From Dictyostelium discoideum (lineage: Eukaryota): a stretch of DNA of 64,000 bases. The stretch spans positions 3,584,001 through 3,648,000 of the forward strand of contig CM000153.2 in NCBI GenBank assembly GCA_000004695.1, written 5' to 3'. Below the pieces are notes generated by a model. The model ran no database searches. It had not been told where the DNA came from and was given only the letters and a program-made list of their open reading frames with translations. Below are positions 479 through 11,491 of the stretch, piece after piece (position 1 is the first letter of the stretch; every line of letters starts with the position of its first letter). Position numbers and translations under genes: made by a program.

Positions 479-1281
479 TTACCTTAAAATTGGAATTGTT
501 AAATTATCATCAATCCAAGAAGGATTAAAAAGTTCAATAAGTGTAGCACTTATTGCGCCCCAAAATGAAATATGTTCAGCCAAGTTTTGATTGAAAAAAG
601 TGATATATGAAAGGATCCAACAAACTGAAAACATTGCAATTGAGCCTTCCAAAGATTTATTACCAATCTTTGTTCTACCATAAGAAATACCAACCAAAGC
701 TGCAGTGAAATCACCAATAATTAAAAATAACATACTTGAAACTGCTATTAATGGATGGAAAAAATAAACACATATAGTGCTACCTAATAAATAAAAAAAC
801 ACGCCATTCATTCTATCCTTTTCTTTTTCTCTCATCATTCCACCATACATTTTGACACAAAACTCTTGCATTGCTGGAATATTCAATCTCATTTGTTCCC
901 AAATAAAATATAATAAACTGATTGTACCTAAAATCCAAACTCCAACTTGTGTTGTGAAAAATGTTGTATAATGTAATCCTAGTAAATATATAATTGGTAT
1001 TACCAATCCAAAAAAGTGAAATCCTTTTCTCTATATATTAAAATAATAATAATAATAATAATAATAATAATAATAATAATAATAATAATAATAATAATAA
1101 TAATAATAATAATAATAATAATAATAATAATAATAATAATAATAATTAGTAATTTAAAATTTTAGAGTGAAAAGTTGTAATAATAATTTACCTTTAATTC
1201 TTTTATTACTCTTGGTATTCTCTTAACACCAACACCAATATATCTTAATGCATTTGATAATTGTTTTCTATTTATGCCCAT
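479..1281 (-). CDS. small polyprenol/dolichol-kinase-family membrane protein (CTP-dependent kinase C-terminal module only), about 213 aa; exons 1192..1281 and 479..1030
   Basis: Exon 1 reads ATG GGC ATA AAT ... TTA AAG (30 codons) and is followed by a GTAAAT donor. The acceptor tatatag lies at 1031-1037, and exon 2 is in frame with the track ORF 479..1006 (which starts at an alternative TTG). 90 + 552 = 642 nt = 214 codons. The C-terminal motif IIGDFTAALVGISYGRTKIGNKSLEGS matches the CTP-binding motif of dolichol/phytol kinases. Confidence 0.55.
1042..1146. repeat. (AAT)n microsatellite, about 35 units, inside the intron of the small kinase gene
   Basis: Uninterrupted aat repeats read directly from the sequence. 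Confidence 0.9.
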
Positions 1282-2012
1282 TATTATTTATTTTATATAT
1301 ATATATTATTATAATATGATTTTTTTTTTTTTTTTTTTTTTTTTTTTTTTTTCTTTCTTCTTTATTTAAATTATACTTGATTATTTAATTTTAGTATTTA
1401 ATGATTATTAACGAAACCAACTTGTTTTTTTTTTTTTTTTGACGTTTTATATATTTATTTTTAGTATATGTGGTGTGTGAGTGTGTTTATGAAATTAATT
1501 TATATTTTTTTTTTTTTTGAAGAAATTTTAATTAAATTTTTTTATTTTTTTTTTATTTTTTTCTGAATTTTTTTATTTTTTATTTTTTTGAATTTAATTC
1601 TTTTAATTTATTGAAACATATGAAAATACAGGATATTTATATTTCCCTTTCCCAAAAAAGATTGAAATAAACAAATAAATAAAAACAACTAAGCAATTTT
1701 TTTTTTTTTAAAATAATATAAAAAATAAAAAATAAAAAATATTAAAAAAGTTTTTTAATTATTTTTATTTTTTAATTTTTTTTTTTTTTTTTTTTTTTTG
1801 TATAATTAAATCCAAAAAAAACTAAATAAAATTAGATTTACCATTATAAATTTTTATTTTTTATTTTTTTTTATTTTTTTTTATTTTTTTATTTTTTTTT
1901 AGACACAAGCCAAAATAACCTGAGTTTTAATATATTTTTTTTTTTTTTTTTTTTTTTTTTGATCAACTTTTTGTACAACCTATTTATACGCTTCTTCTCC
2001 CATTATTATATT

Positions 2013-8945: not shown

Positions 8946-9583
8946 TCCTTTATTTTTACAAATTAAAAAATTTTAGAAATTTATCTCTTTTTTTCTATTT
9001 CTCTTTACTTTTTAGTGAGGTAGTTTTTGAAAATAAGTAAGACTGGAAGAATTTTTTTTGATACCCAACAAAATATAAAAAGACTTAAGGATTAAAAAAT
9101 TTATTCTAATAACCATTGTCATTGAAAGCCATATATTAATAAATTTTCAATTAAAAAAAAATGTGGAAATCTAAGATGGTTTGCTGAATAAAAAATTATG
9201 GCTTGTGGTTGGCCAATTTTTTTTTTTTTTTTATTTTTTTAATAATATCTCGGACGAATTTTGTTTTTTTTTTTTAGGACTAAATGTTAAATTAAAAAAT
9301 TGCACCAAAATGCATTCAAAAATAGATTTCGTTGTTCTTTTTTTTCTTTGGAAACTAAATTATTAGTATTAAAAAGAAAAAAAAAATAAAAAATTAATAG
9401 AAAGTCAACTTTTGCAATAACAAATCCAATTTATTTAATAATTTTTTTTTTTTTTTAAAACTTTCGCAGTTTGGTGAATGATATTTTTTATGAAAAAAAA
9501 AAAAATTATCTGCAAAGACATTGATTGTTTTTTTTTATATATTTTTTTTTTTTTTTTTCTTAACAAATATATTATTATTTTTA

Positions 9584-11491
9584 TTATAAATTTATAAGAG
9601 TGAAATAAAATAATGGTAATATTAAATTATCTATTTGAGTAGTGGATGCTTCCATTAAAGAGCAAGAGGTTGAAGTGACAATTATTTTTAAAATTGAAGA
9701 GATTGTCAAGGAGGAACCACTTGCAGAACAAAACCAATAAAGCAATAAAGAGGCAATAATAGTAAAAATGGAACCAGCTACAGTGCCTTCAATTGATTTT
9801 TGTGAACCAAACCATTTATTTCTACCATATTTTACACCGAAATAAGAAGCCATTGTATCACCAATACCAATTGTTAATATACCAGAGAATGGTGATAAGA
9901 AATGATAAGAATTTGATTGGATGCCACTACTACCAAGATGAATTAAATCCATAAAGAAAGTTAAAAACAAAGGTATTGAACAGCCTAGTAATAGATAAAT
10001 ATGGGTAGTTGTAATTAGTCCAGAATCACGGTCATCCAAGAATCTGTCCATGTAATGTCTAATTGGTAATGCTAATGGTGGTGCAAGTGAGTATTTTAAT
10101 AGTTCCAATAATATTAAAGCACTAATGGAAACTGAATAGCTTAAGACCATGAATTTATACATATCATCGTCACCTTCCAATAGTAGTGGTGGAGTAAACA
10201 TCACTATTGCCAGTATATGAAAATACTTTCTAGAGATAATCATTGGTATACTAGAATGAATGGTTGGTTGATATGAAAATATAGTGAATACCAATAATAC
10301 CATCCATAATCCAATTGTATACTTTATTCTATCACTTGATCCAATATATTCAAATACCCAAATAAATGGATTCTCACCATTCAATTGATATGATAATACT
10401 GGATAAATAATACCAACTATTATAAAAATTACTAAAAAATAAAATAAACTACTCTTTATTATTATATTCTTTATTAAATTATTATTATTATTATTATTAT
10501 TATAATCTGTCATTAATTTTCTTAAACTTTTTGCAACATTAAATAAACTATTTAAAAAAACAATAAATAATGAACCAACTATTAAACTATAAAAACAATA
10601 TAATATATTTATTCTAGAAAATTTATTAATACTATTATCATTATTATTATTATTATTATTGTTATTAATAAATAAATTATAAAAATATCTAATTGATTCT
10701 GATAATAGTATAGTAATAATTTGAGAAATAATTGAAGCTTCTCCTATTGTAAAACTATTTGGTAATTTATAGAGTAATTGTTTTGTTATTACTAAAAATA
10801 TAAAACTTAATAAAAATAAAAATAATGTTAACTTTAAATTATTAAAATTAATTTCATTGTCAAAGAATATTGTAAAAGAGATTATTAAAGTGATTAAAAA
10901 TATTATTATGAAATTTGTATATTCTTTTTTTGTTAAAGAAGGTTGGTGTGATGATGATGACGAAGGCTTCCATATTTTTGAATTTCTATATGTATTTATA
11001 TGATTAAATAAAAATAGTGGTGATATTATTGATAATGAAATTTGATATAATGATATTATTGTGAAATAGTTATTATTATTATTATTATTATTGTTATTTA
11101 ATGTTAATAAAATAACTAATAATATATTAGGTATTAATGATATTCCTAAACCTAATCCCCAATCTGATTGTTGTCTTTCTACTAATAATTTATTATCATC
11201 ATTATTATTTTTATGAGATCTTGAATGTAAATTTTTAGATGTAAAATTAAATTTAATAAAAAATTGATAACAAATGTTGATGGTGGTAGATAAAATTAAG
11301 AAACTATTTTTATAAAAATTTTCAATCAAGCTAATTTCATTGTTTTTATTAATGGTATTATATAATAATATTATTGATACTAATACTTGAAAAATGAATT
11401 CAAGTTTGCTATTATTATTATTATTTTTATTTTTATTATTATTATTATTATTATTATTATTAATGGGGTTTCCTTTGACCTCAGAGAACAT
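9584..11491 (-). CDS. dolk: dolichol kinase (Sec59/DOLK-like), 635 aa, single exon
   Basis: Track ORF with a genuine ATG. There are many TM segments. The C-terminal motif GIGDTMASYFGVKYGRNKWFGSQKSIEGTVAGS is the CTP-dependent polyprenol kinase signature. The protein carries N-rich low-complexity inserts. Confidence 0.7.
   Translation of the reverse strand: MFSEVKGNPINNNNNNNNNKNKNNNNNSKLEFIFQVLVSIILLYNTINKNNEISLIENFYKNSFLILSTTINICYQFFIKFNFTSKNLHSRSHKNNNDDNKLLVERQQSDWGLGLGISLIPNILLVILLTLNNNNNNNNNNYFTIISLYQISLSIISPLFLFNHINTYRNSKIWKPSSSSSHQPSLTKKEYTNFIIIFLITLIISFTIFFDNEINFNNLKLTLFLFLLSFIFLVITKQLLYKLPNSFTIGEASIISQIITILLSESIRYFYNLFINNNNNNNNNDNSINKFSRINILYCFYSLIVGSLFIVFLNSLFNVAKSLRKLMTDYNNNNNNNNLIKNIIIKSSLFYFLVIFIIVGIIYPVLSYQLNGENPFIWVFEYIGSSDRIKYTIGLWMVLLVFTIFSYQPTIHSSIPMIISRKYFHILAIVMFTPPLLLEGDDDMYKFMVLSYSVSISALILLELLKYSLAPPLALPIRHYMDRFLDDRDSGLITTTHIYLLLGCSIPLFLTFFMDLIHLGSSGIQSNSYHFLSPFSGILTIGIGDTMASYFGVKYGRNKWFGSQKSIEGTVAGSIFTIIASLLLYWFCSASGSSLTISSILKIIVTSTSCSLMEASTTQIDNLILPLFYFTLINL

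What the first reader, a model, noticed from the sequence alone, without database searches (positions are those of the whole stretch)
479..11491. Two CTP-dependent polyprenol-kinase-family genes 8 kb apart, one full-length and one reduced to the catalytic module
The 635-aa gene at 9584..11491 has the typical dolichol kinase architecture: a long multi-TM N-terminal part followed by a C-terminal CTP-binding motif (GDTMASYFGVKYGRNKW...SIEGT). The 213-aa gene at 479..1281 consists essentially of the C-terminal module alone (IGDFTAALVGISYGRTKIGNKSLEGS). This resembles phytol or farnesol kinase-type short members. Either this is a second isoprenoid-alcohol kinase with a different substrate, or it is a truncated duplicate.
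Basis: partly seen in the sequence, partly recalled or inferred. Interest (0 to 1): 0.5.

Follow-up and report, generated by a model that had tools for sequence, protein, structure and literature searches.

The report
Dolichol kinase plus Dgk1-like lipid kinase
The window (Dictyostelium discoideum) holds the ordinary dolichol kinase gene and, 8 kb away by chance, a separate and ancient small lipid kinase that most resembles yeast's CTP-dependent diacylglycerol kinase Dgk1; it is not a cut-down copy of its neighbour.

Summary
Both genes are real and both are annotated in D. discoideum AX4. The large one is DDB_G0285689 (635 aa) and the small one is DDB_G0285681. It has three exons (1281-1192, 1030-483, 401-332) and encodes 235 aa, not 213.

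The large protein sits in the dolichol-kinase clade with 100% bootstrap support. Its similarity to animal dolichol kinases extends over about 400 aa.

The small protein shares the roughly 200-aa catalytic module and every family-invariant residue. It is not a truncated duplicate:
- It matches its neighbour over only 44 aa.
- It has conserved orthologues across Amoebozoa and other protists.
- It is 81% identical to its D. purpureum orthologue; for the dolichol kinase the figure is 50%.
- It is not linked to the dolichol kinase gene in D. purpureum, Heterostelium or Cavenderia.

Its nearest characterised relative is yeast Dgk1 (32% over 228 aa, E about 1e-21). The Dgk1 residues shown by mutation to be essential are conserved. 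Arabidopsis phytol and farnesol kinases are much more distant (E about 1e-6 to 1e-7). Uncharacterised bacterial short kinases are closer still, and the tree backbone is unresolved. The substrate, most likely diacylglycerol, is therefore an inference.

Verdict: a new member of a known kind, of modest interest.

The parts
1192..1281 (-). Small gene (DDB_G0285681), exon 1: ATG at 1281, residues 1-30 (MGINRKQLSNALRYIGVGVKRIPRVIKELK).
   Evidence: Sequence read. The spliced translation is identical to XP_638212.1.
1031..1191 (-). Small gene, intron 1 (GTAAAT...ATATAG, 161 nt). It contains a perfect (AAT)35 microsatellite at 1042-1146.
   Evidence: The D. purpureum orthologue is intronless and collinear across this junction.
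483..1030 (-). Small gene, exon 2: residues 31-213 (the last codon is split). It encodes the R31-K32-x-x-H35 clamp (1016-1030), the M-R97-E-K-E100 motif, the catalytic motif IGD137FTAALVG144ISYG148...KSLEG159S (641-718), E196 and D205-N206.
402..482 (-). Small gene, intron 2 (GTAAGG...TTTTAG, 81 nt).
332..401 (-). Small gene, exon 3: residues 213-235 (SAIIMKYMTARFGVDLPIYNNYV) plus the TAG stop at 332-334. It completes the last helix.
   Evidence: In the AF2 model, helix 205-224 has pLDDT above 95.
9584..11491 (-). Large gene (DDB_G0285689), single exon, 635 aa: dolichol kinase orthologue.
10256..11491 (-). Large gene, N-terminal multi-pass membrane region (residues 1-412). It has at least 7 strongly hydrophobic segments and several poly-Asn tracts.
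   Evidence: Similarity to animal dolichol kinases extends into this region: 28-30% identity over 322-403 aa.
9587..10255 (-). Large gene, C-terminal catalytic module (residues 413-635), homologous to the whole small protein. It carries R421-K422-x-x-H425, D486-x-x-D489, the G544-D545 TMASYFG552...KSIEG569T motif (9782-9862), E614 and D621-N622.
2025..3871 (-). Intervening gene: eIF3i-like WD40 gene. This is the conserved neighbour of the small kinase gene in other dictyostelids. It is context, not part of the kinase pair.
   Evidence: tblastx against the EIF3I-annotated neighbours in Cavenderia (L003) and Heterostelium (L002), E about 1e-121 to 1e-124.

Best explanation
The window carries two anciently diverged members of the CTP-dependent lipid-kinase branch of the CdsA / CTP_transf_1 superfamily. 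They lie 8 kb apart in D. discoideum by chance.

DDB_G0285689 (635 aa) is the orthologue of dolichol kinase (DOLK/Sec59). It has a long multi-pass N-terminal region and a C-terminal module that transfers the gamma-phosphate of CTP to dolichol in the ER.

DDB_G0285681 (235 aa, three exons) is an intact, strongly conserved, stand-alone catalytic module of the Dgk1-like subfamily. It most likely sits in the ER and nuclear envelope. It would bind CTP with the R31/K32/H35 clamp and the D137...G144...G148 motif, and phosphorylate a membrane lipid alcohol. The best guess for the substrate is diacylglycerol, giving phosphatidate and opposing lipin/Pah1 as yeast Dgk1 does.

Shown here: homology, gene structure, conservation of catalytic residues, fold, and independence from the neighbouring gene. 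Inferred: CTP use, the substrate and the localisation.
For: - Identity and gene models.
- Large protein as dolichol kinase: animal dolichol kinases match at E 1e-30 to 1e-35, with 28-30% identity over 322-403 aa. The dolichol kinase clade has 100% bootstrap support, with the Dictyostelium protein inside the dictyostelid group.
- Small protein versus verified yeast Dgk1p (P0128): 32% identity over 228 aa, E 8e-22. The match covers Dgk1 residues 73-288, which is the whole catalytic domain. By comparison it matches its neighbour over only 44 aa, and VTE5/FOLK over 132-142 aa at E 1e-6 and 2e-7.
- Profile-profile scores for the amoebozoan family: 181 against fungal Dgk1, 94 against plant VTE5/FOLK, 87 against dolichol kinases.
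- All 145 new entries among the 150 closest cluster representatives, plus four earlier relatives, score higher against Dgk1 than against VTE5/FOLK.
- Dgk1 R76 and D177, shown by mutation to be essential (PMC2459266, PMC3486869), correspond to R31 and D137. K77 and G184 correspond to K32 and G144.
- Nine residues are invariant in all 51 family members sampled, and both window proteins have all nine.
- The small protein shares E28, the M-R-x-K-E motif and A141 with Dgk1. It does not share these with VTE5/FOLK or dolichol kinases.
- Constraint: 81% identity to the D. purpureum orthologue, against 50% for the dolichol kinase.
- JGI labels several close relatives 'diacylglycerol kinase (CTP)'.
- No linkage to the dolichol kinase gene in three other dictyostelids. 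The conserved neighbour is eIF3i.
Against: - The neighbour-joining tree does not unite the amoebozoan clade with fungal Dgk1 to the exclusion of others (0-1% bootstrap).
- Uncharacterised bacterial short kinases are closer to the Dictyostelium protein than Dgk1 is (profile scores 379 and 290 against 181). Orthology with Dgk1 is therefore unresolved, and the substrate could differ.
- Position 158 is Glu, as in bacterial proteins and dolichol kinases. Fungal Dgk1 and the plant kinases have Ala there.
- The protein lacks the 70-aa hydrophilic N-terminal region of yeast Dgk1.
- No Pfam or NCBIfam hit was found, although characterised members of the family also fail Pfam.
- UniProt's automatic name for the protein is 'Dolichol kinase'.
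- No biochemical or expression data were available.
Confidence: 0.6

Rival explanations
1. The small protein is a prenol kinase (farnesol, geranylgeraniol or phytol type, like plant VTE5/FOLK or Plasmodium PolK). It would salvage free isoprenoid alcohols to their monophosphates using CTP.
For: - It has the same catalytic module and the same invariant residues as VTE5/FOLK.
- The R-K-x-x-H clamp is the one described for PfPolK (PMC10849223).
- The prenol salvage kinases of non-plant eukaryotes are largely unidentified (PMC10849223).
- The substrates of the nearest bacterial relatives are unknown.
- The tree backbone is unresolved.
Against: - It is much more distant from verified VTE5/FOLK (E 1e-6 and 2e-7, partial alignments) than from Dgk1 (E 7e-21, full length).
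- The profile score is 94 against 181.
- VTE5 and FOLK form their own clade with 100% support, outside the assemblage that holds the small protein.
- The discriminating positions (E28, R97-x-x-E100, A141) follow Dgk1, not VTE5/FOLK.
- Yeast extracts containing native Dgk1 made no farnesyl or geranylgeranyl phosphate (PMC10849223). Dgk1-type enzymes are therefore not general prenol kinases.
Confidence: 0.22
2. The small protein is a second dolichol or polyprenol kinase, as in UniProt's automatic name 'Dolichol kinase'. It would be a minimal version working alongside the full-length enzyme.
For: - UniProt and JGI give automatic 'dolichol kinase' labels to this protein and to many bacterial relatives.
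- It shares the catalytic module with dolichol kinases.
- It has E158, as dolichol kinases do.
Against: - It lies outside the dolichol kinase clade, which has 100% support.
- It lacks the N-terminal multi-pass region.
- The dolichol-kinase-specific D-x-x-D motif is replaced by R-x-x-E.
- It has no significant similarity to an animal dolichol kinase (E 0.4-1.5).
- The 'dolichol kinase' labels come from the generic COG0170-type assignment, not from experiments. This last point is my own knowledge.
Confidence: 0.08
3. The small gene is a truncated, recent duplicate of the neighbouring dolichol kinase gene, possibly a decaying pseudogene. The 8-kb spacing would then reflect a local duplication.
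For: The two genes are close together, lie on the same strand and share a motif.
Against: - Only 44 aa align, at 41% identity.
- The two proteins fall in separate deep clades.
- Orthologues of 43-81% identity exist across Amoebozoa and in Heterolobosea.
- It is 81% identical to the D. purpureum orthologue, with an intact ORF, intact splice sites and all catalytic residues.
- It is not linked to the dolichol kinase gene in D. purpureum, Heterostelium or Cavenderia.
Confidence: 0.01
4. The proximity is functional: the two lipid kinases form a co-regulated gene neighbourhood.
For: They lie on the same strand, 8.3 kb apart, in a genome of about 34 Mb (the genome size is my own knowledge). For one pre-specified pair, the chance of lying this close is about 6e-4.
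Against: - Three unrelated genes lie between them.
- The linkage is absent in every other dictyostelid tested.
Eukaryotic genes this far apart are transcribed independently.
Confidence: 0.03

Closest known systems
Saccharomyces cerevisiae Dgk1 (YOR311C), the CTP-dependent diacylglycerol kinase of the ER and nuclear envelope. Closest characterised relative of the small protein.
   Same: - The two are collinear over the whole catalytic domain (Dgk1 residues 73-288), with 32% identity and E about 1e-21.
- R76, K77, D177 and G184 are conserved as R31, K32, D137 and G144.
- They share the E-x-x-RK-x-FH, M-R-x-K-E and DDN-x-TIP motifs.
- Both are small, multi-pass, stand-alone catalytic modules.
   Different: - The small protein has no 70-aa hydrophilic N-terminal region.
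- It lacks Dgk1's 25-30-aa insertion between the last two helices.
- Position 158 is E in the small protein and A in Dgk1.
- The tree does not show exclusive common ancestry.
- Its activity is untested.
- Dictyostelium also has a conventional ATP-dependent DGKA (PMC6176992), which yeast lacks.
Uncharacterised bacterial 'diacylglycerol/polyprenol kinase family' proteins, for example from Candidatus Poribacteria (P0033) and Bacteroidota (P0085).
   Same: - These are the closest sequences outside eukaryotes: 32-36% identity over 210-222 aa, E 5e-36 to 4e-47, and profile scores of 379 and 290.
- They have the same length class and the same motifs, including E158.
   Different: - They are genuine bacterial genes in bacterial gene contexts.
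- Their function is unknown.
- They lack the N-terminal extension seen in most of the eukaryotic relatives.
Arabidopsis VTE5 (phytol kinase) and FOLK (farnesol kinase); Plasmodium PolK.
   Same: They have the same catalytic module, the same invariant residues and the same R-K-x-x-H clamp (PMC10849223). They are short enzymes without the N-terminal region found in dolichol kinases.
   Different: - Similarity is weak and partial (E 1e-6 to 1e-7).
- They form a separate clade.
- The signatures differ: G-[IM]-A-D against F-T-A-A, and K-G-P-L-[FY]-Y against N-G-V-F-F-Y.
- The plant proteins carry plastid-targeting N-termini. This last point is my own knowledge.
Dolichol kinase (human DOLK / yeast Sec59). 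This is the family of the large protein.
   Same: The large protein has the long multi-pass N-terminal region and the C-terminal CTP module. It matches animal dolichol kinases at 28-30% identity over 322-403 aa, and it lies inside the dolichol kinase clade at 100% support.
   Different: The Dictyostelium protein carries poly-Asn insertions typical of this genome. Its Pfam PF01148 score is below threshold (20.2 against 24 bits). The small protein shares only the catalytic module with this family.
CDP-diacylglycerol synthase CdsA (Thermotoga maritima, PDB 4Q2E).
   Different: Sequence identity is 16%. CdsA is a cytidylyltransferase, not a kinase, and it has more helices.

Membership tests
CTP_transf_1 superfamily (PF01148; CdsA fold) | Pfam PF01148 hit at or above the gathering score | tested here: inconclusive
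   The small protein has no hit. The large protein scores 20.2 bits against a cut-off of 24. The same model also misses yeast Dgk1, Arabidopsis FOLK and an animal dolichol kinase, and it scores VTE5 at 23.4 bits. The test therefore has no discriminating power for this branch of the family.
CTP_transf_1 superfamily (PF01148; CdsA fold) | Catalytic signature D-x-x-A-x-x-x-G-x-x-x-G ... K-[ST]-x-[EA]-G, plus the downstream E and D-N | tested here: met
   Both proteins carry all nine residues that are invariant in the 51 family members sampled. The family profile hits the same motif in TmCdsA at E 0.013.
CTP_transf_1 superfamily (PF01148; CdsA fold) | Fold similarity to a solved member | tested here: met
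Dgk1-type CTP-dependent diacylglycerol kinase (small protein) | Full-length collinear similarity to the catalytic domain of characterised Dgk1 | tested here: met
   32% identity over 228 aa, E 8e-22, covering Dgk1 residues 73-288. Profile-profile E is 4e-27.
Dgk1-type CTP-dependent diacylglycerol kinase (small protein) | Conservation of residues shown by mutation to be required: R76 and D177. K77 and G184 are also reported as required, from my own knowledge of Han et al. 2008b, which I could not access. | tested here: met
   R31, K32, D137 and G144 align with R76, K77, D177 and G184. The mutational data are in PMC2459266 and PMC3486869.
Dgk1-type CTP-dependent diacylglycerol kinase (small protein) | Orthology: monophyly with fungal Dgk1 to the exclusion of other subfamilies | tested here: inconclusive
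   In the neighbour-joining tree (500 bootstraps), the amoebozoan clade has 96% support and the fungal clade 100%, but their exclusive union has 0-1%. Bacterial short kinases are interleaved and are closer.
Dgk1-type CTP-dependent diacylglycerol kinase (small protein) | CTP-dependent phosphorylation of diacylglycerol; genetic opposition to Pah1/lipin | not testable with these tools
   This needs an enzyme assay and yeast complementation.
VTE5/FOLK/PolK prenol kinases (small protein) | Closest characterised relatives are prenol kinases, and the protein falls in their clade | tested here: not met
   Verified VTE5 and FOLK match at E 1e-6 and 2e-7 over 132-142 aa, against 7e-21 for Dgk1. The profile score is 94 against 181. 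VTE5 and FOLK form a separate clade with 100% support.
VTE5/FOLK/PolK prenol kinases (small protein) | CTP-dependent farnesol, geranylgeraniol or phytol kinase activity | not testable with these tools
   This needs an enzyme assay.
Dolichol kinase DOLK/Sec59 (large protein) | C-terminal CTP module plus a long multi-pass N-terminal region homologous to known dolichol kinases | tested here: met
   28-30% identity over 322-403 aa to Branchiostoma and Scleropages dolichol kinases, and E 1e-30 to 1e-35. There are at least 7 hydrophobic segments before the module.
Dolichol kinase DOLK/Sec59 (large protein) | Placement inside the dolichol kinase clade | tested here: met
   The dolichol kinase clade has 100% bootstrap support. 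The D. discoideum protein nests with the D. purpureum, P. violaceum and Cavenderia orthologues.
Dolichol kinase DOLK/Sec59 (large protein) | Dolichol kinase activity; complementation of sec59 | not testable with these tools
   This needs an experiment.
Dolichol kinase DOLK/Sec59 (small protein; UniProt's automatic name) | Dolichol kinase clade membership, the N-terminal region and the D-x-x-D motif | tested here: not met
   The small protein lies outside the clade. It has no N-terminal region. It has R97-x-x-E100 where dolichol kinases have D-x-x-D. It shows no significant match to an animal dolichol kinase.

The most novel reading that the evidence does not exclude
DDB_G0285681 and its orthologues in Amoebozoa, Heterolobosea and Preaxostyla may not be diacylglycerol kinases. 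They could be a eukaryotic offshoot of an uncharacterised bacterial short-kinase clade that phosphorylates a different lipid alcohol. One candidate is the so far unidentified CTP-dependent farnesol/geranylgeraniol salvage kinase of non-photosynthetic eukaryotes.

A less radical reading: Dgk1-type CTP-dependent diacylglycerol phosphorylation is an ancient pathway spread across eukaryotes and bacteria, not a fungal peculiarity. In that case dgkA-null Dictyostelium is not free of diacylglycerol kinase activity.
Probability: 0.2. Interest if true: 0.5.

Novelty: new member of a known kind. Interest (0 to 1): 0.3.

Why it matters
Both genes are already annotated, and the dolichol kinase is ordinary.

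The useful result concerns DDB_G0285681. It is labelled 'hypothetical protein' or, automatically, 'Dolichol kinase'. Here it is best read as a Dgk1-like CTP-dependent lipid kinase.

Dgk1 was first reported as having no apparent relatives outside yeasts (PMC2459266). Work in Dictyostelium has assumed that deleting dgkA removes all diacylglycerol kinase activity (PMC6176992). If this gene encodes a second, CTP-dependent route from diacylglycerol to phosphatidate, that assumption needs re-checking. So do interpretations of diacylglycerol and phosphatidate signalling, lipid-droplet phenotypes and nuclear-envelope phenotypes in this model organism.

The result also shows that Pfam PF01148 systematically misses this branch of the family, so automatic annotation of these proteins is unreliable.

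Tried and rejected
- Pfam and NCBIfam scans of the small protein gave no hit. This turned out to be uninformative, because characterised members also fail Pfam.
- Sequence search of the PDB with either protein found nothing relevant. With the family profile, the only result was a marginal CdsA hit.
- The Foldseek search of the AlphaFold database was not available. I therefore could not obtain named structural neighbours.
- I looked up source names for ten of the closest cluster representatives, hoping for named taxa that bridge Amoebozoa and fungi. 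No organism names were returned, and only one carried a functional label.
- A literature search for DDB_G0285681, and a search for papers linking VTE5, dolichol kinase and DGK1, found nothing.
- Han et al. 2008b (PMC2459283) is not held.
- I searched for an upstream exon encoding the extra N-terminal transmembrane helix seen in Heterostelium, Cavenderia and Tieghemostelium. No significant match was found upstream in D. discoideum or D. purpureum. The short N-terminus in group-4 dictyostelids and P. violaceum looks real.
- The gene neighbourhoods of bacterial relatives, examined for substrate hints, were uninformative.
- The first tree attempt timed out. It was replaced by a neighbour-joining tree using Kimura distances in numpy. 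No maximum-likelihood program was available, so the deep branching stays unresolved.
- Rejected outright: a truncated duplicate or pseudogene, and a functional gene cluster.

Full report
**What the window is.** The sequence has about 22% G+C and is full of poly-Asn tracts. Both genes in the finding translate to proteins identical, residue for residue, to Dictyostelium discoideum AX4 reference proteins. The large one is XP_638216.1 / Q54MS7 (DDB_G0285689). NCBI calls it 'hypothetical protein' and UniProt calls it 'dolichol kinase'. The small one is XP_638212.1 / Q54MT1 (DDB_G0285681). NCBI calls it 'hypothetical protein' and UniProt gives it the automatic name 'Dolichol kinase'.

**Checking the observation.** The 635-aa ORF at 9584..11491 on the minus strand is as described. 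The quoted motif lies at residues 544-570.

The small gene was mis-modelled.
- The frame that stops at 479 has run into an intron, which begins with GT at 482-481.
- Splicing from 483 to 401 stays in frame and adds 22 residues, ending at TAG 334-332.
- The resulting 235-aa product is the annotated protein.
- Its C-terminus aligns with every homologue.
- The D. purpureum orthologue is a single uninterrupted 711-nt ORF that is collinear across both junctions.
- In the AlphaFold model the last helix (205-224) spans the exon 2/3 junction at very high confidence. The 213-aa model would cut this helix in half.

**Do the two proteins share a module?** Yes. A profile built from 125 relatives of the small protein matches residues 403-635 of the large protein. 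It also matches the C-terminal 200-230 aa of animal and dictyostelid dolichol kinases, with E from 1e-12 to 1e-20. Profile-profile comparison gives 97% probability over about 190 columns.

Nine residues are invariant in all 51 sequences aligned. In the small protein they are R31, H35, D137, G144, G148, G159, E196, D205 and N206. In the large protein they are R421, H425, D545, G552, G556, G569, E614, D621 and N622. Both proteins therefore look catalytically intact.

Pfam's PF01148 model does not report the small protein, and it scores the large one below threshold. The same model also misses yeast Dgk1, Arabidopsis FOLK and a Branchiostoma dolichol kinase, and it leaves VTE5 just under threshold.

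**The large gene.** Its relatives are the dictyostelid 'dolichol kinase' proteins and animal dolichol kinases, with E from 1e-30 to 1e-35. Alignments to the animal enzymes span 322-403 residues, well beyond the catalytic module. At least seven strongly hydrophobic segments precede the module. In a neighbour-joining tree of the catalytic domain, the dolichol kinase clade has 100% bootstrap support and contains this protein among its dictyostelid orthologues.

**The small gene is not a truncated duplicate.**
- It aligns with its neighbour over only 44 residues (41% identity).
- It has orthologues in all sampled dictyostelids at 59-81% identity.
- It also has orthologues in other amoebozoan-type sequences, including a transcript labelled 'Phypoly' (about 50%), and in the heterolobosean Willaertia (44%) and Paratrimastix (33%).
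- It is far more constrained than the dolichol kinase. Identity between D. discoideum and D. purpureum is 81% for the small protein and 50% for the large one.
- A search of 1.84 billion cluster representatives finds 3,430 related clusters at E of 1e-3 or better, and 25 at 1e-30 or better. This is a large and old family.

**Which subfamily?** I needed verified reference sequences. A search with yeast Dgk1 as I recalled it returned genuine S. cerevisiae Dgk1p (P0128) and named orthologues. My recalled Arabidopsis VTE5 and FOLK sequences were confirmed as exact database entries, PHYK1_ARATH and FOLK_ARATH.

Pairwise BLASTP results for the small protein:

| Compared with | Identity / aligned length | E-value |
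|---|---|---|
| Yeast Dgk1 | 32% / 228 aa | 7e-21 (covers the whole Dgk1 catalytic domain, residues 73-288) |
| Arabidopsis VTE5 | 27% / 142 aa | 1e-6 |
| Arabidopsis FOLK | 28% / 132 aa | 2e-7 |
| Neighbouring dolichol kinase | 40% / 44 aa | 1e-4 |
| Animal dolichol kinase | not significant | not significant |

Profile-profile scores for the amoebozoan family are 181 against fungal Dgk1, 94 against the plant kinases and 87 against dolichol kinases. Of the 150 closest cluster representatives, the 145 that were new, plus four earlier relatives, were scored, and every one scores higher against Dgk1 than against VTE5/FOLK.

The Dgk1 residues shown by mutation to be essential are R76 and D177 (PMC2459266, PMC3486869). 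They align with R31 and D137. K77 and G184 align with K32 and G144. Positions that discriminate the subfamilies follow Dgk1: E28, the M-R-x-K-E motif and A141. Dolichol kinases have D-x-x-D at the second of these, and VTE5/FOLK have R-x-G-[RD]. JGI's orthology-based labels on several close relatives read 'diacylglycerol kinase (CTP)'.

**Limits of that assignment.**
- Uncharacterised bacterial short kinases are even closer to the Dictyostelium protein than Dgk1 is. Against a Poribacteria protein the E-value is 5e-36 to 4e-47, and the profile scores are 379 and 290.
- These are genuine bacterial genes in bacterial gene contexts.
- Fungal Dgk1 is about equally distant from the amoebozoan clade and from one bacterial group (181 against 187).
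- In the tree, the amoebozoan clade (96%), fungal Dgk1 (100%), VTE5+FOLK (100%) and dolichol kinases (100%) are each solid. The backbone is not. An exclusive Amoebozoa-plus-fungi grouping gets 0-1% support.
- Position 158 is Glu, as in bacteria and dolichol kinases. Fungal Dgk1 and the plant kinases have Ala there.
- The protein lacks Dgk1's hydrophilic N-terminal 70 residues.

I therefore file the small protein as a member of the Dgk1-like, short CTP-dependent lipid-kinase subfamily. Diacylglycerol is the most likely substrate, at roughly 55%. A prenol substrate is a real alternative. One argument against a general prenol activity for Dgk1-type enzymes is that yeast extracts containing native Dgk1 produced no farnesyl or geranylgeranyl phosphate (PMC10849223).

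**Likely mechanism (inferred).** The protein is a compact multi-helix membrane enzyme, probably in the ER and nuclear envelope like Dgk1. The R31/K32/H35 clamp would hold the phosphates of CTP; the same clamp is described for PfPolK in PMC10849223. The D137...G144...G148 / K155-S-L-E-G159 loop and the E196 / D205-N206 residues would form the nucleotide and metal site. The enzyme would transfer the gamma-phosphate to the hydroxyl of a lipid alcohol in the membrane. If the substrate is diacylglycerol, the product phosphatidate would feed CDP-DAG-dependent phospholipid synthesis and oppose lipin.

**The 8-kb spacing.** Three genes lie between the two kinases:
- an eIF3i-like WD40 gene (about 2025-3871, minus strand);
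- two members of a small paralogous membrane-protein family (6065-7549, plus strand; 7605-8945, minus strand).

In Heterostelium and Cavenderia no dolichol kinase gene lies within 10 kb of the small-gene orthologue. What is conserved beside it is the eIF3i gene. In Cavenderia both genes lie on the same 4.17-Mb scaffold, but the dolichol kinase gene is not within 10 kb of the small gene. In D. purpureum the dolichol kinase gene sits in the middle of a 118-kb scaffold with no small gene within 10 kb, and the small gene is on a different scaffold. The juxtaposition is therefore specific to the D. discoideum lineage and best explained by chance.

**Comparison with what is known, and novelty.** Both genes are already in the reference annotation. 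The dolichol kinase is ordinary.

The small gene's reassignment is a modest annotation improvement with one concrete consequence. The paper that discovered Dgk1 found no apparent relatives outside yeasts (PMC2459266). A later paper noted a Tetrahymena homologue (PMC3486869). Dictyostelium work treats the dgkA knockout as lacking all diacylglycerol kinase activity (PMC6176992). A Dgk1-like gene in the genome makes that claim testable. It is a new member of a known kind, with interest of about 0.3.

Noticed in passing
window 6065-7549 (+), 7605-8945 (-), 12207-13379 (+): Three multi-exon paralogues encode small multi-pass membrane proteins. They share N-termini (M..DEFT[ST]..[VI]NKA[IV]LGLSIIR...) and a C-terminal ...MYSLGGDSFK... 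exon followed by Ser/Asn-rich tails. They flank the dolichol kinase gene on both sides. The local Pfam copy gives no hit. In D. purpureum, the genes next to the dolichol kinase gene carry PF06814 (GOST_TM) (L004 7464-9179). This suggests a conserved neighbour family that was duplicated or inverted in D. discoideum.
   Followed up: partly
window about 2025-3871 (-), repeat at 2766-2937: This is an eIF3i-like WD40 gene, the conserved neighbour of the small kinase gene in Cavenderia and Heterostelium. It contains a near-perfect 57-copy trinucleotide repeat that reads as poly-Asn in the same frame as the flanking conserved blocks. The repeat is therefore either a roughly 57-residue Asn insertion in a translation factor or an intron. 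I did not resolve which.
   Followed up: partly
window 1042-1146: A perfect (AAT)35 microsatellite fills most of intron 1 of the small kinase gene.
   Followed up: no
window 27827-30073 (+): A 748-aa ORF carries Talin IBS2B and I/LWEQ domains (a Sla2/Hip1R- or talin-like gene). Its G+C is 35-43%, against a background of about 20%. A gene with ENTH/ANTH and I/LWEQ domains lies 5 kb from the small-kinase orthologue in Heterostelium (L002 1994-4924). This may be a remnant of wider synteny.
   Followed up: no
small protein N-terminus; window 1282-1800; L001 1-1084: Orthologues in Heterostelium, Cavenderia, Tieghemostelium and other amoebozoan-type sequences carry an extra 45-55 N-terminal residues that include a hydrophobic helix. 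The D. discoideum, D. purpureum and P. violaceum proteins start just after it. No upstream exon could be found. This looks like a lineage-specific loss of an N-terminal transmembrane helix.
   Followed up: yes
L005 6001-6678 (Candidatus Poribacteria), L007 6001-6648 (Bacteroidota metagenome contig): Bacterial short kinases are closer to the amoebozoan proteins than fungal Dgk1 is. In the tree, the Poribacteria-like group nests among protist sequences, with weak support. This is possibly horizontal transfer between bacteria and eukaryotes, direction unknown. In the Bacteroidota contig the gene follows tilS-hpt-ftsH and precedes dcd.
   Followed up: partly
window 21103-22965 (+), 52502-53632 (+), 16764-18200 (-): Other identifiable genes in the window are a Y_phosphatase2-family tyrosine phosphatase, deoxyhypusine synthase (PF01916, E 7e-125) and a FNIP-repeat protein. 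No tRNA genes were found.
   Followed up: no
Pfam PF01148 model (not a window feature): The CTP_transf_1 model fails to report experimentally characterised family members. Yeast Dgk1, Arabidopsis FOLK and an animal dolichol kinase get no hit, and VTE5 scores 23.4 bits against a cut-off of 24. Database entries for the dolichol kinase relatives cite a newer family, PF28421, which is absent from the local Pfam copy.
   Followed up: yes
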